From Octopus vulgaris (taxonomy: Eukaryota): a stretch of 64,000 bases of DNA. Positions 10,672 through 63,644 of this stretch are shown piece by piece (the stretch's first letter is position 1; each line of letters starts with the position of its first letter). The DNA lies in the NCBI GenBank assembly GCA_951406725.2, contig OX597828.1, positions 26,784,001 through 26,848,000 of the forward strand, written 5' to 3'. The notes beneath the pieces are model-generated. The model made no database searches. It worked only from the letters and a program-made list of their open reading frames with translations, and had not been told where the DNA came from. The translations under genes and the position numbers were made by a program.

Positions 10672-10850
10672 GATCGTTAGCCGCTACAGACATTTTTTTC
10701 TCTCCTTGTTTTTCTTCTGTGTCTCTTCCTGTAGAAGAGCGTAGGCTCGAAACGTAAAAGTCTTTTTCTATTCCTAAGCATTATACTAATACATCTGTTT
10801 GTTTTGTACACCACCTGTCTTTGTCTTTTGTTTTTTTCGTAAACTCTCCC
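10672..10850 (+). mobile_element. Short microsatellite-flanked element H3 carrying a hammerhead-like motif
   Basis: Bounded by (CA)n and (TA)n. Its 3' part recurs inverted at 35818-35905. Confidence 0.65.
10725..10760 (+). ncRNA. Minimal hammerhead ribozyme-like motif (variant core)
   Basis: CUUC-CUGUAGA-A-GAGC-guag-GCUC-GAAACGU-A-AAAG. Core A6 is replaced by U, so it may be inactive. Confidence 0.5.
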
Positions 10851-13649: not shown

Positions 13650-14032
13650 ATCGTGACGCATATTTGCCATTTGAATATGGCTAACCCCTAAGGGTGGATG
13701 CTACTGTAGTTTGTAGCCCCAGAAAGATATCTCCTCCAGCTGGCTATAGACACACTATCTGTGCCCTATCGGTATTTGTGAAGGGAAGTCATCCTTCCCG
13801 TCTTCAACTTATGATACACACGGGCTCGAATTTCAAGGTGTTTACCTATCGTCAGCGTGTGACAATCATAGTTGTCGATGAGAATTCAGTTTCCCTCACA
13901 AATACATATACTTTTTCCAGTGTCGATTGACACTGATATTGAAAAAGTGAAATCAAACAATGATAAATCTCAGAGCTAGTTATAAACAGTAGCGATAACA
14001 CATCGTGACGTATATTTGCCATTTGAATATGG
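13650..14032 (-). mobile_element. Element H4: 352-bp monomer plus 31-bp terminal direct repeat, containing a hammerhead motif (retrozyme / Penelope pLTR-like)
   Basis: ATCGTGACG(C/T)ATATTTGCCATTTGAATATGG occurs at 13650-13680 and 14002-14032. Internal hairpins are present and the element is flanked by (TA)n and (TG)n. Confidence 0.75.
13817..13861 (-). ncRNA. Type-I hammerhead ribozyme motif
   Basis: CACACG-CUGACGA-uAGGUaaacACCUu-GAAA-UUCGAG-CC-CGUGUG. It has a perfect 6-bp stem I and an intact CUGANGA/GAAA core; stem III is a decayed (A)CUCGAG(U) palindrome. Confidence 0.7.
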
Positions 14033-14419
14033 TGTGTGTGTGTGCATGTCTTTGTATGTGTGCCTCCTCTCACCACTGCTTGACAACTTGTGTTCATGTC
14101 CCTGTAACTTAGTACTTCAATAAATGAGACCTATAGAATAAGTTCCAGCTGTAAAAAAAAAATGTTCTGGCATTGATTCATTGAACTAAAATTCTGCAAG
14201 GTAGTGCCCCAGCATGGCCAGTCTAATGACTGCAACAAGTAAATACTAAAAGACATATATACATCATCATCGGCATTGTTGAGTTTTAACTTCAACTTTT
14301 CTATACTTTCATGTGTCAAATGGAATTGTTTGAGGCAAATTTTCTCTGGCCAGATGCTCTACCTGCCACCAAGTCTCACCTGTTTCCACGTAGGGTAATA
14401 TTTCATCTTGGCTGAAGAT

Positions 14420-15430
14420 GTTTTCACTGAAGACTTGGAGAAGGCATTTGACAGAGTGCCACATGCACCAATTTGGTGGTCACTAAGGAAACTAGGCGTA
14501 GATGTATGGTTTGTGATGACCATACAAACTGCATACAAAGATGCCATAAGTAAAGTGAGAGTCAACAAGGATATCATTGATGAGTCTAGCATGAGGCTAG
14601 GAGTCCATCAAAGTTCAGTTCTCTGTTATTCATCATAGTCTTACGGTTCATCACAGAGAAGGTTAACACTGGTTATTCATGTGAACTCCTTTATGCTGAT
14701 CTAGTTCTTGTAGCTGAATCTGTTGAGCAATTAGAGAGGAAATTCTAGGTTTGGAAGTTAAATCTAATACTGAGAGATCTTAAGCTAAACTTAGGAAAGG
14801 TGAAGGTTTTAGTCGATAGAACAGAAGACGGGACCCTGATATCCTTAGGAAAAAAGGAGTAGATATAAACTTCATATGCTGTGCTGATTGTAAACTATGG
14901 ATACCCAAGAAGTGTTGTAGAATCCCAAGCAGACTAACAGAGGATGTAAGATTCATATAGGATAGATGCTCTGGAGTAGTTTGTACTATGATTACACCAC
15001 AAACAGTTTCTCTTAAATGCTTGGAAAGCCCACTGGAAGTAGCTGATATATTTTAATATTTTACCTATGAGGGGTTTGTTCTGAAAGTATAACCACCAGG
15101 ATAAGAATGGATTGCAGAAAGTTCAGGGAGCTATTACTGTTGCTGGCTACAAAGGTCTTAGAGTGAAGGGAAGATTGTATGATGCTTGTGTTAGAACTGT
15201 GATGCTGCAGGGCAGTGAGACTTCGGGCTCGAATGCAGAAGACTTGAGAAGATTGGAAAGAGATGAATTGAGCATGCTGCATTGGATGTGCAGTGTAAAA
15301 ATTCTTGACTGACACAATATCTTTTGAGAGAAAAACTAGGCCTTAAAGGATTCAGAGGTAATGGGCAAGATTGAAAACTGTGCTGGTACAGACATGTGAT
15401 GCATATGGATGAGGACCGCTGTATTAAAAC
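14420..15430 (+). pseudogene. Decayed reverse transcriptase of an RTE-like non-LTR retrotransposon
   Basis: DLEKAFDRVP...IWWSLRKLGV, GVHQSSVL, LLYAD-LVL (one Asp missing) and KGRLYDACVR..ML.GSET, interrupted by stops and frameshifts. Confidence 0.92.
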
Positions 15431-19468: not shown

Positions 19469-19542
19469 TTTTAAAAAATAATAAAATATATATAAAACAA
19501 GGTGTACGTACGCTGCTATATATATATGTATATATATAAAAA

Positions 19543-19883
19543 TACAAAATGGGACAAGAACGCAAAACATTCAAATAGACGATACAAAAAACACGGACGG
19601 GTCATTTGAAGCCTCTAATCTTCAGTCAAGAACCGGATCATCCTTGCACTTTTGGCTGATTAATCTTGAGATTGCTCCAATCTGGCCAACCCCAAGGAAA
19701 AACTAAGCTACGAGCATTAGATTTCTTGGAAAAAGGATCGAATGTATATGAAACAAGGATAGAAAAATGGAGGCTCTTACACGAATATCCGGTTCTTGAC
19801 TGAAGATTTGAGGCTTCGAATGACTCGTCCGTGTTTTTTGTATCGTCTATTTGAATGTTTTGCGTTCTTGTCCCATTTTGTAT
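19543..19883. repeat. (TA)n-flanked element with ~95-bp inverted arms
   Basis: 19543-19638 is the reverse complement of 19787-19883 with few mismatches. Confidence 0.88.
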
Positions 19884-19918
19884 TATATATATATATATAT
19901 ATATATATAATGTATATA

Positions 19919-26576: not shown

Positions 26577-27813
26577 CTGGTCTAATAACATTGTAGGTGT
26601 ATGGACGAGAATGGATTGTGAGAGGTCCACGATGTGAAGACCCTGGCAAATAACTTGTAGCTTCAAGTCATGATACAAAATAATTTGTAATTATTTATCT
26701 TTCTTAATCACTGATTAAGTTTTAAAAAATAATTAACCAGAATGGCTGAGACTTGTTGTCCATTTGCTTCTGAGTTTGGAGAGAGTCTAAACAGGTAAAA
26801 TTGTGCCATAAAAGTAGACAAGTCTTTCTGTACCTTTAGAATATTAGTTCTTAGAAATGAGGTGATTTCTTAAAGGTGCAAGCAAGGCTGAGGCTGTACT
26901 TGCAAGATCACTTTGGTAAAAGATAACGTAAAGACTACGGTAATGGAGATTGATGTAAAATTTGAAGTTGAAGCTATGTATGTTTGTATGTACAAGTTTG
27001 TCTGTGTAATATGCATGTTCATGTATGTATATGTGTATGTTTAAAGGTACGTATGTTGAAGAACCCAGGAAAATTCATTTTGTTTTTATTGAAAGTTGAT
27101 GAAATAGTAAAAGCATGAGTGAAGGAAACTGTTTTCCCTGTTTGTTTTTAAAGAAAATTAAAAGCAACACTACCACCACCACCAACAACAACAACAACAG
27201 TAATGATAAATAAAAATAATAATATGATTTACTCTATTAAAACATATATTGTGAAAAACAAAAAAACAAAAACAGAAAAAAAAGAAGATAAAAATGAGTG
27301 TAATAGATTATAACTTGACAGTACAAACATATTGTATCTTGATTAAAATGTTCTGAGGGGGGGGGGAGGCAGTGGTAATGATGTGGTATTGGTGGTGGCG
27401 GTGGTGGTAGTGGTACGATGGTTGTTGAAAAAAGAAATGAAGAGGAAATAATAAAATTTAATAACATATCAATAAATCAAATTCACCGTTCTTAAAGTAA
27501 ACTACTTATGGCAGGAAGTTCAGAAGATAGATGTGTGTGTATGTGTGTGTGTGTGTGTGTGTAAATCAAAACGATGCAGTGACGAGGAGAATATTTGTGT
27601 TGTCTTAGTCTCCCGTATAATTAAGTAGTTCACATGTCAGTCATGAGATCTGGGTTCCATTTTACTGCAGGATATTTTGGGCAAATGTCTTATCTTTTGC
27701 CATTAACTTGGGTCAGCCTAAGATTTGTGGGTGAAAATGAGGTGAAAGAAACTGTGTGGAAGCCCACTGTGTGTGTACATGTGTGTGTGTTTTATATATA
27801 TATATACACATAT

Positions 27814-28006
27814 ATGTGACTGCGTGTTTACCGTTGGCGGTTTTTGTTTTTCTTCCGTCCTCCCTTCCCTGGATCTTTTCTTTTCCTATGTTTCTGACGA
27901 AGAGCTCCGCTCGAAACGTTAGACCCTCCTTCTTCCCTTCCTTCCTGAGCGTCCAATAATACTATATTTGTTCCACATCCTTGCGTTGTTATGTTTTCAT
28001 GTTTGG

Positions 28007-28014
<8 letters not shown>
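27814..28014 (+). mobile_element. Element H1 (~200 bp, TA-flanked) with hammerhead
   Basis: Five similar copies in the window, at 27814, 29929, 39631, 50341 and 63403. Confidence 0.85.
27890..27924 (+). ncRNA. Minimal hammerhead ribozyme (H1)
   Basis: GUUU-CUGACGA-A-GAGC-ucc-GCUC-GAAACGU-U-AGAC. Confidence 0.72.
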
Positions 28015-28589: not shown

Positions 28590-28987
28590 CTCTTTTACTT
28601 GTTTCAGTCATTTGACTGTGGCCATGCTGGAGCACCGCCTTTAATTGAGTAACTCGACCCCGGGACTTATTCTTTTGTGAACCCAGTACTTATTCTATCG
28701 GTCTCTTTTGCCGAACCGCTAAGTAACGGGGACATAAACACACCAGCATCGGTTGTCAAGCAATGCTAGGGGAGCAAACACAGACACGCAAACACACACA
28801 CGCGTATATATATATACATATATACGACGGGCTTCTTTCAGTTTCCATCTACCAAATCCACTCACAAGGCTTTGGTCGGCCCGAGGCTATAGTAGAAGAC
28901 TTTTGCCCAAGGTGCCACGCAGTGGGACTGAACCCGGAACCATGTGGTTGGTTAGCAAGCTACTTACCACACAGCCACTCCTGCTCC
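28590..28987 (-). mobile_element. Full-length SINE A
   Basis: Reverse complement of 7382-7795. Confidence 0.93.
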
Positions 28988-29928
28988 TAATTACACTTCT
29001 TAACCACATAGACCTACTAGTGCTTATGATAGGAACTGTCATTAATTTAACATTCGTTTTTCCATGTTTGCATGGGTTGAGCAGGGTTTAATGCGGCAGA
29101 TTTGTTTTTCATGGTCAGATTCCTGTTGTGCCACCAAATCTTAACTATTTCCAAACAGATTCATATTTCCGAATAGCCAAACATTCGTTTACTACAATCT
29201 CGCAATGTCAAGACAAGGAGAGATAAATACAGACACTATAACACTCACACATGCAATACCTACACACCTGCACACTCACTCACAGACATGCATATCAGGT
29301 TGCTTTGCAGTGCTACTGGTAACATGTAACCCAGTGCAACCTGTCATATTGGTCAGCCTGTCGTATTGGTCATCAGCGACTAAACTGACAAGCCCTCTGA
29401 GCTTTCATGGTGAGGAGGGTGATTCTTTTGGACACCCTACAGGATGAAAGACTAGGCCTGTGAAAGGGTGGAGGAACTCATGAGAGTCACTGACCATACA
29501 ATTTTGGTTTGCTGTTCCTCAGTCTCATGGCATATTTGCACAACTGTTGGTTTTAGCAAACCCCAAAAGAGTAACTGGTCCCACACAAGCCATTACCATT
29601 TCAAAGATGTCACTGTAGATTGTCTGAAGGATTTGCTTAATTCATTCTTTATCAAGATCAACCTCAAAAACATCCTGTTGTGAATATGTGTGTGTGTGTG
29701 TGTGTGTTTAGAAGAAGGGGAGAAAGAAAATGGGCAAAAAGGAGAAAAAAGAAAGGAAAATGAAGAGAAGAAAAGAAGAAAGGAAATAGAAAAGAGGAAA
29801 AGGAATTGAAAAGCAAGAAAAAAGTAAAATTTGTTGGATCTTATGTGTATGTGTGTGTGCATGTATGTATGTATGTATCTTGTTTTTAAAAACATTTTCC
29901 TTCATTTTTACCACTTCCGTCTTTTAGT

Positions 29929-30136
29929 ATGTGACCTCGTGAATACCACCGGCGATTTTTTTTTTTTTCCTGTCCTCCCGTCTCGGGATCTTTCCTTCTC
30001 CTATGTTTCCGACGAAGAGCTCCGCTCGAAACGTCAAACCCTCCTTCTTCCCTTCTTTCCTGAGCGTCCAATAATACTTTATTTGTTCCACATCCTTGCG
30101 TTGTTGTCTTTTTGTTTTCTTGTTTGGATTAACTTT
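29929..30136 (+). mobile_element. Element H1; hammerhead motif at 30005-30039 (CCGACGA variant, GUC triplet)
   Basis: GTTTCCGACGAAGAGCTCCGCTCGAAACGTCAAAC, followed downstream by (TA)n. Confidence 0.85.
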
Positions 30137-38345: not shown

Positions 38346-39630
38346 GCACACATATAGATAATGTGTATAATATATCACATATACATACATATATGTATAT
38401 ATGCGCACACACATGCACATATGTGTATGTGCGTGAAATGGAAAATAAATGAAAAAGAAAATAGAAAAATAGAAATTAAAAAAAAAAATATGCAGCTTCT
38501 CTAATTCAAAAGTTCTTCATCTGCCAATATAGCAGAGAACCATGGAGGATAATGTCTAAACATGCATGTCATGATAAAGTTTTCAATAATTGTTTTCTGA
38601 CATGCAACAGTCACAACAATGTAAAGTCTAAGGAGCAACATTTTTATTTTATTCAAGTAGAGATACTAAAAAATGTTTCAAGTGCTGTGCAGCAGTCAGG
38701 AGTTTGGTTTGCAATCTGTGTTTGTTTGACTTAGTAGCATATTTTTTTAAAAAATTCTTCTGCTCTACAGAATATTGATATGGAATTGGTGTTACTAACA
38801 GACTGCTGATTCGTTAAGTACCATTGTCATTGTCATCGTTGTTTTAATGTTCGTATTTCCATGCTCGCATTGGTTGGACTGAATTATTTGTAAGGGGGAA
38901 GATTTGTTTTTACTGCTGGATGCTCTTCCTGTTGCCAAACCTCACCGGCTTCCAATATTCCCTCAGGGCCAGACTTATTTCTACAGATTAAAGATGAAGG
39001 ATACTGCTTACATGTTGATGACATTCATTTACATTTGTCACAGATGTCAAGGCAAGGAAACACACAGCATATACACACATTCACACACACACACATTCAT
39101 ATATGGCAGACTTCTTTCAGTATAAGTGGATTTTTCTTTTTTCTTTTCATATAGATTCAGACATGGCTGTGTGGTTAAGATGCTTGCTTTGCAGAACCAC
39201 ACAGTTTCAGTTTCAGTCCCCCTCTGCAGCATCTTAGGCAAGTATTGTCTGCTATAACTTCGGGACAATTAATGCCTTGTGAATTGGAAGGCAGAAACTG
39301 TGTGGAGGTCATACATACATACATACATACATATATATGTGTGTGTGTATATTTAGAGTATATGACATGGATGCAGAAAAGCGTGTGGCTATCACAGAAA
39401 GCATCTCTAATGGACTTGGCTAACAAATCACATAGTAAGGTATCCATGCAGCTGAAATCCAGAAGATATAATCAATGAGATTATTTTATGAGGAGTATAT
39501 AAACCATAAGAAGTCGGGAAGTACTACATTAAGAAGGTGGCGGAATGGCCGTAATCCTAAGGGTGTCAAATGATTTAATATATATATTCACCTCTCATAC
39601 TTCCTCACTTTTCTATGGTATATATATATA

Positions 39631-39833
39631 GTTAATCCAAACAAGAAAGCACAAAAAAACACAACAACGCGAGGACGTGGAACAAATATAGTATTATTGG
39701 GCGCTCAGGAAAGAAGGAGGGTTTAACGTTTCGAGCGGAGCTCCTCGTCAGAAACATAGGTGAAGGAAAGATCCAGAGAAGGGAAGACAGAGGGAAAAAA
39801 ATCGCCAATGGTACACGCGGTCACATTTTGAAA
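39631..39833 (-). mobile_element. Element H1; hammerhead motif at 39721-39755
   Basis: Minus strand GUUU-CUGACGA-G-GAGCuccGCUC-GAAACGUU-AAAC, with (TA)n on both sides. Confidence 0.87.
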
Positions 39834-40008
39834 TATATATATATGTATGTATGTGTGTGTGTGTGTGTGTGTGTGTTAGACTGCAGCTATGCTGGGCCTT
39901 GAAGAATTTTAGTGAAGAAATCGATTCCAGGATTTACTATTTTTTTTGTAAAGCCTGGTACTTATTCGGTTGGTCTCAAGCAATGGTGGGAAACAAACAC
40001 AGACATTG

Positions 40009-40823: not shown

Positions 40824-41440
40824 CATAGAGCTGTGGCCATGCTGGGGCACTGCCTTAAAAGATTTAGTTGAACAAATTGACATATTTTTCACATCTAGTA
40901 CTTATTTCATCAGTCTTTTATGTACATCTGCCAAGCCGTTGGGATGCAAACAAACTAACATTGGTTGTTGAGCAATGATGGTGGTGAGGGGCAAACACAA
41001 AAATACACACATACACATAGAGCTGTGACCATGCTGTGGCCATGCTGGGGCACTGCCTTAAAAGATTTAGTTGAACAAATTGACCCCCCCCTATGACATT
41101 TTTCATGTCTAGCACTTATTTCATCAGTCTTTTATGTACATCTGCCAAGCCATTGGGATGCAAACAAACTAACACTGGTTGTTGAGCAATGATGGTGGTG
41201 AGGGACAAACACAAAAATACACACATACACATAGAGCTGTGGCCATGCTGGGGCACTGCCTTAAAAGATTTAGTTGAACAAATTGACCCCCCCCCCATGA
41301 CATATTTTTCATGTCTAGTACTTATTTCATCAGTCTTTTATGTACATCTGCCAAGCCGTTGGGATGCAAACAAACTAACACTGGTTGTTGAGCAATGATG
41401 GTGGTGAGGGGACAAACACAAAAATATACACATACACATA
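40824..41440. repeat. Tandem triplication of a ~200-bp diverged SINE A segment
   Basis: CATAGAGCTGTG... restarts at 40824, 41016 and 41230. Confidence 0.9.
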
Positions 41441-50300: not shown

Positions 50301-50340
<40 letters not shown>

Positions 50341-50345
<5 letters not shown>

Positions 50346-50527
50346 ATCCAAACAAGAAAGCACAAAAAAAACACAATGCGAGGACGTGGAACAAATATAG
50401 TATTATTGGATGCTCAGGAAAGAAGGAGGGTTTAACGTTTCGAGCGGAGCTCTTCGTCGGAAACATAGGAGAAGGGAAGACAGAGGGAAAAAAAATTGCC
50501 AACGGTACACACACGGTCACATTTTGA

Positions 50528-50528
<1 letters not shown>
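50341..50528 (-). mobile_element. Element H1; hammerhead motif at 50430-50464 (CCGACGA variant)
   Basis: Embedded between two long (TA)n tracts. Confidence 0.87.
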
Positions 50529-50573
<45 letters not shown>

Positions 50574-53569: not shown

Positions 53570-55536
53570 AGTCTTCTATTCCCTCTTCCTCAATGAATGA
53601 ATGTGTGTGTGTGTGTTGTATGCTTAGGATAATAGAATGGCCAAGTGGTTAAATAGTTTGCTTTGCAATCATGAAATTTCAGGGTTCAAACCCACTGAGT
53701 GACAGTTTGGACAAGCTTTCTCTCCCCTTAAGTCTTGGGTCAACCACCTACTTCCTGCGAGTGGAATTGGCCAAATGTTGGACGTGTCATTATTTGAAAA
53801 GAATCAGCTTTGTCACATGTTATGTCTTACTGGTTCCACCAGAGGATCATCTTAAGCCTAAACATCACTTTGGAATACTCAGCCACTTCCAATCCTGATT
53901 CAGTGTATTAATTGGCTGCCCAGTTTCATATGGTAACTGGAATCTTTGTGGAAATCACCATTGATTAGTGGACGCACAGACATGATTCAGTGGTCAGGAG
54001 GCTTAATTCGCAACCACATGGTTTCAAGTTCAGTCCCCCAGTACAACACCATGGGTAATTGTCTTCTGCTATAGCCCTCATCTAACAAATGCCTCTTGAC
54101 TGAGTTTGGTAGATGGAAACTGTACAGAAGCCCATCATATATATATATATATATATATATGTACATATGCCTTTGAATTTGTCCTGCACTACTTCTTGAT
54201 CACAAGTATTGGTCTGTTTCATTACCTAGCAATTCTGCAAAAGAGACTGATGGAATAAGGACCAGCCTTAAAAGTGGGGAGGGAAAGGGAAATGGAACCC
54301 CAGCTTATTGGGGTTTATCTGTTTGACTAAACTATTCAAGACGATGCCCCAGCAGGGGCCGTAGTCCAATCACTGACGCAGGTAGAAGGCAGAAGATAAG
54401 CCATCGCATATACATACGTTCATACATATACATTACATATATATATATATATATATATATATAAATCTATTTTACACTATCTCTCACTCTTCGTCTCTGT
54501 GTGTGTCTCTCTCTCTCTCACTCACACACACACACACACACACACACACGCATAGGCATTATTTGCTTTGTGTATCAGTGTTTCTCTTCCTTGTCTGTCT
54601 CTTGTTTTCTACCTTTCATATCACTCCTCTCTCTCTCTCTCTCTCATACCTTTCTTATCTAATTTTACTACCTGTCAAATTGGTTACAAACACCTTCAGT
54701 CTCTCTCCTCCTCCCCCCTCTCTCTCTCCTGTCCCTCATTCCTCTCCCCACTACTCTGCTGATGATCTTTGCACTCTGAACGTCCCTCTCTCTTACCCCA
54801 GCCCACACACATCTTAGCCACACCCACTTTCTGTCAAGGACCACCCACATATTACCTTCCCAGCCACCTGTTAAATAACACTGTTCTCACTGCATCCATT
54901 GCACTCAGTAACCATCTCCAACACCCACTTAATGAATCCACCTCCCACAACCTCTCTATCCTCTCCCCCTCTCTTTTCCTTACCCTGCTCCTTTCTCATG
55001 TGCCCCACTTCCTTATAAGTCTCACCATAATATTAGGTCTCCTAGTTCTAGGTTGTTGCCTTTTCCTCTGTACCTCTTTCTACCTTCTTCTCCTTCTTAA
55101 TGGTTTCTAAGTAGTAAATTAATTAAGTGAATTGACTCATTAAAGCAGAAGTGGAGGAGGAGGAGGTAAGAAAAAGAACCATGCAGTATTTAGTTTTGAC
55201 TGTCTCTGCACTCATTGAGTTCAAATCTTGCTGAGGTCAGATTTGTTTTGCTTCCATTCAGGGCCAATAAAACAACATGCAAAGGGGATTAGAAGAATTG
55301 TTGGAACATTGATGCCAGATATCAGGCACATACGTGGCTGTGTTGTAGCAAGTTGGCTTTCCAATCATAGGGTCTCCAGTTCAGTCCCACTGCATGGCAC
55401 CAAGGGCATTTGCCTTCTACTCTAGCCCAGGTTGATCAAAGCCTTGTGAATAAATTCAGTGGATGGAAACTGAAAGAAGCCTATCATATATATGTATGTT
55501 TGTGTGTGTGTGTGTGTGTGCGTGTGTGTGTGTATG

Positions 55537-55575
<39 letters not shown>

Positions 55576-55581
<6 letters not shown>

Positions 55582-55746
55582 CACTAAGAAGGTTTAGAAA
55601 CCACCTGAAGAATGTCTAAGATGTGCTGACACGAAACGATCGTAGTGGTTATTCATTTGTTAAATTTTAATTTATATAAATTATTTTATGTATTGGCTTA
55701 AGTCTTTCTTTCTTTGATTTGCATAATAGTGGTTTTGTCTCTAATT

Positions 55747-55750
<4 letters not shown>
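55576..55750 (+). mobile_element. Element H5 (~175 bp, (TA)n on both sides) with hammerhead
   Basis: Short AT-rich insert between two long (TA)n tracts. Confidence 0.7.
55599..55650 (+). ncRNA. Type-I hammerhead ribozyme with palindromic stem III
   Basis: AACCAC-CUGAAGA-aUGUC..GACAc-GAA-ACGAUCGU-A-GUGGUU: 6-bp stem I, intact core, perfect palindrome ACGAUCGU and a GUA cleavage triplet. Confidence 0.82.
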
Positions 55751-55792
<42 letters not shown>

Positions 55793-55795
<3 letters not shown>

Positions 55796-56285
55796 AGCAC
55801 CATACGAGTGTGATCATTGACAGAGCGGCTAACCGGCTTCCGTGCCAGTGGCACTTAGAAGGCACCATTCGAGTTACCAGCGTCACCTTACTGGCACTCA
55901 AGCCCCACGCTAGTAGGGTATTAAGAGCACCATCCAAGCGTGATCGTTGCCAGAGCGGCTATCTGGCCTCCGTGCCGGTGGCATGTAAAAGACACCATTC
56001 AAGCGTGATCGTTACCAGCCTTGCATTACTGGCACCTGTGCTGGTGGCATGTGTAAAAGATTCGAGCAAGGTCGTTGCCAGTACTGCCTGACTGGCCACG
56101 TGCCGGTGGCACGTAAAAGCACCCATTACACTCTAGGAGTGGTTGGCGTTAGGAAGGGCATCCAGCTATAGAAACTCTGCCAGATCAAGATTGAAGCCTG
56201 GTGCAGCCACCTGGTTTGCCAGCCCTCAGTCATTCGTTCAACCCATTCTAGCATGGAAAGCGGACGTTAAATGATGATGATGATG
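55793..56285 (+). mobile_element. RTE-like 3' UTR (family C) with about 5 hairpin units
   Basis: Repeated GCACCAT..AGCGTGATCGTT.CCAG...CTGGC..CGTGCCGGTGGCAC units, then the GTTGGCGTTAGGAAGGGCATCC motif and (TGA)n. Confidence 0.87.
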
Positions 56286-56315
56286 TATGTATGTGTGTGT
56301 GTGTGTATAATTATA

Positions 56316-63352: not shown

Positions 63353-63399
<47 letters not shown>

Positions 63400-63402
63400 T
63401 AT

Positions 63403-63594
63403 AGTTAATCCAAACATGAAAGCACAAAAAAACACAACAACGCGAGGACGTGGAACAAATATAGTATTATTAGATGCTCAGGAAAGAAGGAGGGTTTAAC
63501 GTTTCGAGCAGAGCTCTTCGTCAGAAACATAGGAGAAGGAAAGATCCAGAGAAGGGAAGACAGAGGAAAGAAATCGCCAACGGTAAACATGCGG

Positions 63595-63598
<4 letters not shown>
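63403..63598 (-). mobile_element. Element H1; hammerhead motif at 63494-63528
   Basis: Minus strand GUUU-CUGACGA-A-GAGCucuGCUC-GAAACGUU-AAAC, with (TA)n on both sides. Confidence 0.87.

Positions 63599-63644
<46 letters not shown>

What the first reader, a model, noticed from the sequence alone, without database searches (positions are those of the whole stretch)
55576..55750. Best-preserved hammerhead: a dimer-type ribozyme in a 175-bp insert between two (TA)n tracts
Seen: 6-bp stem I, CUGAAGA, 4-bp stem II with an A-C mismatch at the closing pair, GAAA, the perfect palindrome ACGAUCGU and a GUA triplet (predicted cleavage after 55644). Inference: if the + strand is transcribed, for example as an intron, it could self-cleave or cleave after dimerising with another copy.
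Basis: partly seen in the sequence, partly recalled or inferred. Interest (0 to 1): 0.7.

Follow-up and report, generated by a model that had tools for sequence, protein, structure and literature searches.

The report
Retrotransposon tail with dimer-type hammerhead ribozyme
A short, many-copy repeat inside a TA microsatellite carries a complete hammerhead (self-cutting RNA) core; it is likely the truncated tail of a known kind of jumping gene in a likely octopus-type genome, predicted to cut only in pairs and probably idle at this spot.

Summary
The motif is real and correctly placed. It is a type I hammerhead at 55599-55650 (+): 6-bp stem I, intact core, 4-bp stem II under an A·C apposition, 8-nt palindromic helix III. 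It is the only strict hit in the window; none arose in 40 shuffles; Rfam Hammerhead_1 matches it below the gathering score. Two copies co-fold exactly into the double hammerhead.

It is not a lone, damaged ribozyme. The insert is a many-copy repeat in DNA runs of three organisms. Its depth climbs 30-90-fold towards a 3' end that runs into (TA)n. No variant at A55612 reaches 3%, so A·C is the family's normal state and the proposed 'repair' restores nothing.

The layout (TA)n target, hammerhead about 170 nt from the 3' end, 4-bp helix III and mismatched base of stem II matches published Hydra-clade Penelope-like elements. It shares short in-register motifs with Octopus Hydra-1_Obim. No reverse transcriptase gene could be linked, so the clade is inferred. 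This single copy, with no ORF of its own, is probably inert; its template RNA was not cut at the site. Verdict: a new member of a known kind, low interest.

The parts
55543..55576 (.). Left (TA)17 tract, continuing a (TG)n tract from 55493; likely one half of the target microsatellite
55577..55749 (+). Insert: 3'-terminal piece of a many-copy repeat, likely a 5'-truncated Penelope-like element
   Evidence: no second copy in the window
55577..55590 (+). 5' 14 nt of uncertain status (element sequence or junction filler). Depth at 55577-55583 is 8-60-fold below the hammerhead, partly an edge effect; one 99%-identical contig departs at 55591
55599..55604 (+). Stem I, 5' strand
55605..55611 (+). 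Catalytic core C3-U4-G5-A6-N7-G8-A9 (CUGAAGA), intact
55612..55632 (+). Helix II: A10.1·C11.1 apposition (family state), 4-bp stem, 11-nt loop 55617-55627. The loop holds the only listed variants within the hammerhead (about 5-8% of depth)
55633..55636 (+). Core G12-A13-A14-A15.1
55636..55643 (+). 8-nt palindromic helix III; predicted to pair between two molecules (-10.0 kcal/mol duplex)
55644..55644 (+). A17; predicted cleavage 3' of this base
   Evidence: position in the hammerhead consensus
55645..55650 (+). Stem I, 3' strand
55651..55749 (+). AT-rich 3' tail. Its last ~70 nt are far more abundant than the hammerhead and are shared with sibling subfamilies. C55712 is private to this copy (G in over 99% of depth)
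55750..55793 (.). Right (TA)22 tract; other copies also run into TA repeats at this end
   Evidence: loose ends behind 55736 and 55753

Best explanation
The 173-bp insert is a many-copy repeat with an intact type I hammerhead core about 100 nt from an end that runs into TA repeats; it is likely the 5'-truncated 3' end of a Penelope-like retrotransposon (probably Hydra clade), whose ribozyme is predicted to cut only as a dimer and would be idle in this single copy. Steps. (1, inferred from the literature) A master element, or a non-autonomous derivative, is transcribed from a partial tandem and so carries two hammerheads in one RNA. (2, predicted) The two pair through the 8-nt palindrome into a double hammerhead that could cut after A17; a lone copy folds poorly. 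(3, inferred) The element's GIY-YIG endonuclease nicks (TA)n, and reverse transcription starts about 105 nt 3' of the cleavage site. (4, shown by the sequence) This copy runs straight through the cleavage site, so its template was uncut or re-joined there. (5, inferred from the depth gradient) Reverse transcription usually stops early, leaving many short 3' ends, of which this is one. (6, shown) The A·C apposition is the family's normal state.
For: Repeat status: 23 of 24 listed runs hold the stretch or part of it, in 10 studies and 4 coded organisms; 3 DNA runs of 3 organisms were laid, leaving out the possible source run. Polarity: summed depth averages 38k, 14k and 6k over the hammerhead and peaks 31-, 58- and 91-fold higher at 55724-55730. 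(TA)n target: loose ends of other copies at the 3' end continue as TA repeats (7 contigs each in two runs); 25 of 27 Hydra families are listed with (TA)n preference. Position: from the published table's anchor (20 nt before stem I) to the 3' end is 171 nt here, against 87-425 (median 141) in 24 Hydra rows. Architecture: 14 of those 24 rows have U·U or U·C at the base of stem II, and 21 of 24 have a 4-bp helix III (my reading). Likeness to Hydra-1_Obim, by eye: the same 7-mer before stem I, the same core, the same 7-mer after it, an 8-nt loop ending in GC when stem II is read in that register, a C-G/G-C swap in helix III, and a different but paired stem I. Rough chance of the two non-core 7-mers: 4e-6. 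Host: a repeat-derived ORF of the window hits only an Argonauta hians protein (E=4e-9, 75% over 34% of the query). Dimer fold. No listed variant in the 41 core and stem positions, but several in loop II and the tail.
Against: No reverse transcriptase or endonuclease ORF is linked to the insert: none lies in it, no genome is held, and the letters upstream of longer contigs were not shown. Clade assignment by phylogeny was therefore impossible. It is not Hydra-1_Obim itself: that element has an extra G after the core, an A-U pair at 10.1-11.1 and a much shorter tail after its cleavage site, about 35 nt against 105 here. None of the Hydra rows read shows A·C or a zero-nt loop III, and the Hydra magnipapillata rows are related, not independent. 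Summed contig depth is not a copy number (tool caveat), and part of the 3' rise comes from sibling subfamilies that share only the tail (loose ends before 55666-55669, 55698, 55713). The dimer gain is only partly due to the palindrome: 20 of 200 shuffles of its middle 6 nt do as well. A (TA)n tract as first tract within 220 nt downstream is common here by chance (25% of random positions).
Confidence: 0.8

Rival explanations
1. A truncated monomer of a non-LTR retrozyme or another short non-autonomous hammerhead element, amplified from tandem arrays through circular RNA by a Penelope-like element in trans.
For: A 6-bp helix I, 4-bp helix II and short palindromic helix III are the canonical metazoan type I layout (PMC4209133). 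Axolotl HHR_Amex2 has U·U at the base of stem II and cleaves well as a dimer (PMC7229834 section 15). Dispersed monomers are common (bioRxiv 10.64898/2026.07.22.740005 passages). A circular template would explain reading through the cleavage site. The window holds other short hammerhead elements, one with a terminal direct repeat.
Against: No tandem copy at the locus. No joint leading from the tail back to the head in 4 runs (table 5: none). 3' ends run into (TA)n. Depth is strongly polar rather than flat. A 400-nt contig covering 55591-55740 has 250 further letters for which no second match to the stretch was listed.
Confidence: 0.13
2. A host-domesticated ribozyme that cuts a nascent transcript, for example an intron, at this locus, alone or by pairing with another copy.
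For: The core is intact and the copy is well preserved (1 difference in 150 nt from another copy). The dimer fold is favourable even for the whole insert (palindrome pairs 0.70-0.77).
Against: Good preservation follows from a young, uniform family and needs no selection at this site. The monomer fold is rare (under 0.1%; stem I at most 0.05 in context). No host exon was identified. A PLE hammerhead needed its element's protein to cleave in vitro, and no RNA-seq reads ended at its site (PMC11167929). Minimal PLE hammerheads showed no monomer activity (PMC4209133).
Confidence: 0.04
3. A decayed copy whose ancestor had G10.1-C11.1.
For: G10.1-C11.1 is the most conserved helix II pair (PMC3088659 passage; PMC4209133). 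A G form could have existed before the family amplified.
Against: No G at 55612 reaches 3% of depth in any of three organisms' DNA runs, where depth in that bin is 38,671, 11,034 and 5,080. The same table does show a private change of this copy at 55712.
Confidence: 0.02
4. A chance arrangement in AT-rich DNA.
For: The Rfam score is below the gathering cut-off. The fold is no more stable than shuffles (z=+1.1).
Against: 0 hits in 40 shuffles; expectation about 4e-5; the motif recurs in a repeat family with unchanged core and stems.
Confidence: 0.01

Closest known systems
Hydra-clade Penelope-like elements, especially Hydra-1_Obim of Octopus bimaculoides (Craig et al. 2021, PMC8557442, Files S1, S2, S7)
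   Same: Sense-strand type I hammerhead about 90-210 nt from the 3' end (one row 425); (TA)n target; 4-bp self-complementary helix III; often a mismatch at the base of stem II. Two non-core 7-mers and the core lie in register with Hydra-1_Obim, with a compensatory swap in helix III (by eye).
   Different: A·C rather than U·U, U·C or a standard pair; no extra G after the core; perfect 8-nt palindrome with no loop base; different stem I; tail about 105 nt against about 35 nt; no ORF available for phylogeny.
Minimal hammerheads (min-HHR) of metazoan PLEs (Cervera and De la Pena 2014, PMC4209133)
   Same: Type I, dimer-dependent, scattered as single motifs from truncated PLEs.
   Different: min-HHRs have an extra base after A9, a G10.1-C11.1 pair, a long helix II and a minimal helix III. 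This motif has none of these. Other repeats in the window do fit min-HHR.
Non-LTR retrozymes (Cervera and De la Pena 2020, PMC7229834; bioRxiv 10.64898/2026.07.22.740005)
   Same: 6-bp helix I, 4-bp helix II and palindromic helix III; a stem II base mismatch is known (HHR_Amex2, U·U).
   Different: No tandem units or head-to-tail joints seen; strong 3' polarity and a fixed 3' end in (TA)n.
Rfam Hammerhead_1 (RF00163)
   Same: The whole model aligns at 55599-55650, with every core base matched.
   Different: 22.8 bits against a gathering score of 34; non-standard pair at 10.1-11.1; longer loop II.
Naiad elements of octopuses (Naiad_Obim, Naiad_Ovul, Naiad_Omin; PMC8557442)
   Same: (TA)n target, 5' truncation.
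   Different: They lack canonical hammerheads, and their 3' ends, read by eye, do not resemble the insert.

Membership tests
Type I hammerhead ribozyme | Core CUGANGA, GAAA and NUH at a three-way junction | tested here: met
Type I hammerhead ribozyme | Helices I, II and III, with helix I open-ended | tested here: met
   6, 4 and (as a dimer) 8 bp
Type I hammerhead ribozyme | Standard pair at 10.1-11.1 (typical; natural U·U exceptions are published) | tested here: not met
   A·C, the family state; exceptions
Type I hammerhead ribozyme | Site-specific self-cleavage after H17 | not testable with these tools
   needs an in vitro assay
Type I hammerhead ribozyme | Loop II to helix I tertiary contact | tested here: inconclusive
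   A possible helix I extension (55591-55597 with 55660-55666, 3 of 7 pairs G-U) is unfavourable by energy (-4.8 against -6.4 kcal/mol)
Rfam RF00163 Hammerhead_1 | Score at or above gathering (34 bits) | tested here: not met
   22.8 bits, E=8e-4
Penelope-like elements | ORF with PLE-type reverse transcriptase (and GIY-YIG endonuclease) | not testable with these tools
   the copy is too short; no genome held; collection scans empty
Penelope-like elements | Hammerhead in the pseudo-LTR near the 3' end, sense strand | tested here: met
   cleavage site 105 nt from the 3' end
Penelope-like elements | Many dispersed, 5'-truncated copies | tested here: met
   depth gradient and loose ends; depth is not a true copy count
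Penelope-like elements | Partial-tandem or inverted arrangement forming pseudo-LTRs | tested here: inconclusive
   absent at this locus; longer copies were not visible
Hydra clade | RT phylogeny and C-terminal endonuclease of Hydra type | not testable with these tools
   no protein linked
Hydra clade | Insertion into (TA)n | tested here: met
   also true of Naiad and Neptune, so not diagnostic
Hydra clade | Hammerhead with 3-4 bp helix III and frequent mismatch at the base of stem II | tested here: met
   (my reading of the published table)
PLE min-HHR | Extra H after A9, G10.1-C11.1, minimal helix III | tested here: not met
   against the published consensus
Non-LTR retrozyme | Head-to-tail units of about 170-400 nt, each with a hammerhead | tested here: not met
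   no tandem copy at the locus; no returning joints; arrays elsewhere cannot be excluded
Non-LTR retrozyme | Abundant circular RNA | not testable with these tools
   only contigs were available

The most novel reading that the evidence does not exclude
An octopod Penelope-like family has fixed an A10.1·C11.1 pair as a brake that silences the lone hammerhead. Its many near-identical dispersed copies, read through in host transcripts, then pair in trans through the perfect 8-nt palindrome and cut each other: a genome-wide, concentration-dependent RNA cleavage network.
Probability: 0.05. Interest if true: 0.7.

Novelty: new member of a known kind. Interest (0 to 1): 0.24.

Why it matters
If the best reading holds, this is one more Penelope-like hammerhead family in an octopod: useful for repeat annotation, not surprising. 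Two small points have value. First, a natural, family-wide A·C at helix II position 10.1-11.1 was not in the hammerhead tables I read (U·U, U·C and one C·A were), and standard descriptors and the Rfam cut-off miss it, so such families are under-counted. Second, the role of hammerheads in Penelope-like elements is still called unclear (PMC8557442). A uniform family with a cleanly predicted double hammerhead is a convenient test substrate for whether they cut as dimers, need the element's protein, or merely ride along.

Tried and rejected
Own-genome search: no genome held. Exact-pattern scans: 0 hits in metagenome contigs, viral contigs and prokaryote genome contigs, as expected for an animal repeat. 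Earlier scan notes: nothing by sequence, place or words. Rfam gathering scan of the whole window: 0 matches; the E<=10 scan of 55400-55900 gave 19 weak matches, mostly microsatellite-driven, and no hammerhead. Expression: no RNA holder listed. Run X2 is only guessed to be RNA and no silent control stretch was laid, so its contig counts as another copy, not as transcription. Empty-site alleles: the 10 rows of table 5c join TA-rich ends over a few letters at 80% likeness and may be unrelated microsatellites, so they were rejected as evidence. An ORF end in the first 21 nt (six codons then a stop) is too short to mean anything and lies in the uncertain 5' segment. An excess of copies starting at the cleavage site was not seen: depth falls rather than rises across 55644/55645, and table 6 is empty; 143 loose-end rows were not shown, and one contig does begin at 55644. 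Identity with Naiad_Obim, Naiad_Ovul, Naiad_Omin or Hydra-1_Obim was rejected by eye; two insert motifs gave 0 hits in the PMC8557442 supplement (line breaks can hide a match) and one gave 0 in the PMC4209133 supplement (its file 1 could not be searched). Host gene: 150 of 365 candidate ORFs scanned, 3 weak hits, none at a Pfam cut-off. The repeat finder on the whole window was swamped by microsatellites. No computed alignment to Hydra-1_Obim was made, so that comparison stays by eye.

Full report
1. Observation. The insert is 55577-55749, between (TA)17 and (TA)22. With an exact core, a descriptor scan of both strands found 2 hits, this one and a loose one at 50290-50224; 40 shuffles gave 0. 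The analytic expectation is about 4e-5 per window. Rfam Hammerhead_1 aligns end to end at 55599-55650 with 22.8 bits (gathering 34; E=8e-4 in 91 nt), but was not listed in the wider scans.

2. Folding. As a monomer, the 71-nt region is no more stable than shuffles (z=+1.1). The active fold of the 52-mer has under 0.1% probability. In 174-501 nt of context stem I forms at 0.05 or less. Two 52-mers co-fold with the double hammerhead as minimum-energy structure, -25.8 kcal/mol against -16.2 for two monomers. The intermolecular palindrome pairs have probability 0.90-0.99 for the short pieces and 0.70-0.77 for the whole insert. Control: shuffling the middle 6 nt of the palindrome lowers the mean dimer gain from -9.6 to -7.0, but 20 of 200 shuffles do as well, since swapped stems I give much of the gain. 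The dimer type is predicted, not shown.

3. It is a repeat. No second copy lies in the window and no genome is held. Of 24 listed public runs, 23 hold the stretch or part of it (15 with half its words or more; 10 studies; 4 coded organisms). I laid 55563-55764 on three DNA runs of organisms A, B and C and one run guessed to be RNA, leaving out the best holder as a possible source (1006, 645, 981 and 42 contigs laid). Summed depth averages 38,211, 13,600 and 6,029 over the hammerhead bins and peaks 31, 58 and 91 times higher at 55724-55730. Single listed contigs in those three runs have depths of about 6-235. The tool warns that this is no copy number, but it shows a many-copy family with a steep 3' bias. 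Loose ends at the 3' end continue as TA repeats. Loose ends before 55666-55669, 55698 and 55713 show sibling subfamilies or truncations that share only the tail. Contigs link hammerhead and tail (55618-55715, 55618-55684, and one of 400 nt covering 55591-55740 with 1 difference). The 5' limit is unsettled (55577 or about 55590).

4. The A·C apposition is normal for the family. No other letter at 55612 reaches the 3% listing threshold in any of the 4 runs. None is listed in the 41 core and stem positions. Variants occur in loop II (4.7, 7.4 and 7.9% at 55622, from the same few contigs) and in the tail. The same table detects a private change of this copy at 55712 (G in 99.1-99.7%), so the method can see such changes. 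The lack of variants in core and stems is only suggestive of selection: variant rows are not independent, and the tail draws in more subfamilies. Published context: U·U at this position occurs in natural hammerheads (PMC3088659, passages). Axolotl HHR_Amex2 with U·U cleaves 22% in an hour as a monomer and much better as a dimer (PMC7229834, section 15). I found no activity data for A·C (searches; only PMC3088659 of the papers new to those two listings was opened).

5. What kind of repeat. Penelope-like elements (PLEs) carry hammerheads in their terminal repeats, mostly scattered as single motifs from truncated copies (PMC4209133, main text parts 1-2 of 4). They are heavily 5'-truncated, and several clades target (TA)n (PMC8557442, passages). 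The hammerhead table in the supplement of PMC8557442 has 26 Hydra-clade rows. I used 24, dropping the antisense duplicate of Penelope-13_HM and the 5'-located row of Penelope-18_HMa. By my reading, 14 of 24 have U·U or U·C at the base of stem II and 21 of 24 have a 4-bp helix III. The distance from the row's start to the 3' end is 87-425 nt (median 141), against 171 here. 25 of 27 Hydra families are listed as inserting in (TA)n. By eye, the 3' end of Hydra-1_Obim shares GTTTAGA before stem I, the core and ATGTCTA after it, with a C-G/G-C swap in helix III and a different but paired stem I. The rough chance of the two non-core 7-mers is 4e-6 (allowing 36 rows; the table has 34). It differs in an extra G, an A-U pair at 10.1-11.1 and a much shorter tail, so this is a related family at most. 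The min-HHR consensus does not fit, and the three octopus Naiad 3' ends do not match. One protein search with a repeat-derived ORF (28738-29088) gave 1 hit among 10 candidates, from the octopod Argonauta hians. An octopus-type host is therefore likely, but this rests on one partial hit.

6. Mechanism. Shown: intact core; dispersed family; 3' end in (TA)n; A·C as family state; the copy spans the cleavage site. Predicted: dimer-only folding. Inferred from known PLE biology: tandem precursor RNA, nicking of (TA)n by the GIY-YIG endonuclease, target-primed reverse transcription from the 3' end, early drop-off. That the template was uncut agrees with in vitro work on an anole PLE. There the hammerhead needed the element's protein to cleave, cleavage was not needed for insertion, and no RNA-seq reads ended at the site (PMC11167929, parts 1-2 of 4). 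This copy has one hammerhead, no ORF and no partner in the window, so it is probably idle. Confidence: PLE-derived 3' end 0.8; Hydra clade in particular about 0.6.

7. Rivals. Retrozyme monomer (0.13): the helix sizes fit, but there are no tandem units or returning joints and the depth is polar. Domesticated intronic ribozyme (0.04): no host exon found (0 of 150 ORFs at a Pfam cut-off; 150 of 365 candidates scanned) and poor folding in context. Decayed G-C copy (0.02) and chance (0.01) are contradicted.

8. Novelty. Hammerheads in animal PLEs, in an octopus PLE (Hydra-1_Obim) and in a squid genome (235 Hammerhead_1 loci; PMC6962438, passages) are in print. I did not find this family in searches, or in the supplement searches. 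An O. vulgaris repeat annotation lists 31 recently active Penelope-like families and does not mention ribozymes in its main text (PMC13282606, part 1 of 3 and term search). I did not see its library, nor Repbase or Dfam, nor the supplements of the bioRxiv retrozyme preprint (part 1 of 5 and passages seen), so the family may already be catalogued under a neutral name. Hammerhead numbering and the general steps of target-primed reverse transcription are from my own knowledge.

9. Verdict. Observation confirmed; interpretation partly supported; a new member of a known kind; interest 0.24.

Noticed in passing
window 27810-28010 (+), 29925-30135 (+), 39625-39845 (-), 50335-50545 (-), 63390-63610 (-): Five copies of a ~200-nt element (mean column identity 81%) with a shared 5' end and a minimal hammerhead (extra base after the core, G-C base of stem II, 4-nt palindrome). 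All run into (TA)n 119-128 nt after the core; 2 of 5 have a U4-to-C core change. Looks like a short non-autonomous PLE derivative.
   Followed up: partly
window ~13650-14032 (-): An element of about 350 nt with a ~30-nt direct repeat at both ends (starts at 14032 and 13680), ending in (TA)n, with a decayed type I hammerhead at 13855 that also seems to have a mismatch at the base of stem II. More-than-unit-length insertion, retrozyme- or pseudo-LTR-like.
   Followed up: partly
window ~19540-19890: Inverted pair of copies of one repeat end (cores at 19625 - and 19800 +), each running outward into (TA)n 84-87 nt after a CUGAAGA core with an imperfect second core. This is the inverted arrangement described for PLE insertions.
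   Followed up: partly
window 24424 (-): Well-formed minimal hammerhead: 4-bp stem I, intact core, extra A, 6-bp stem II, 4-nt palindrome; no (TA)n nearby.
   Followed up: no
window ~10675-10850 (+) and 42360 (-): Two further short elements with altered or decayed hammerhead cores; the first runs into (TA)n 122 nt after its core.
   Followed up: no
window 55794-56290 and 55300-55490: Both neighbours of the insert are other dispersed repeats with many 68-97% identical relatives in the window (the right one has 61-66 nt internal repeats); unrelated to the hammerhead element.
   Followed up: partly
window 14399-14635 (+): Weak reverse transcriptase fragment (Pfam RVT_1, E=0.002, 18.4 bits, below the cut-off), probably a decayed LINE.
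   Followed up: no
window 40878-41440: Tandem repeat of a 214-nt unit, 2.7 copies, 92% matches; each unit has a CUGAUGA word on the minus strand but no hammerhead was recognised.
   Followed up: no
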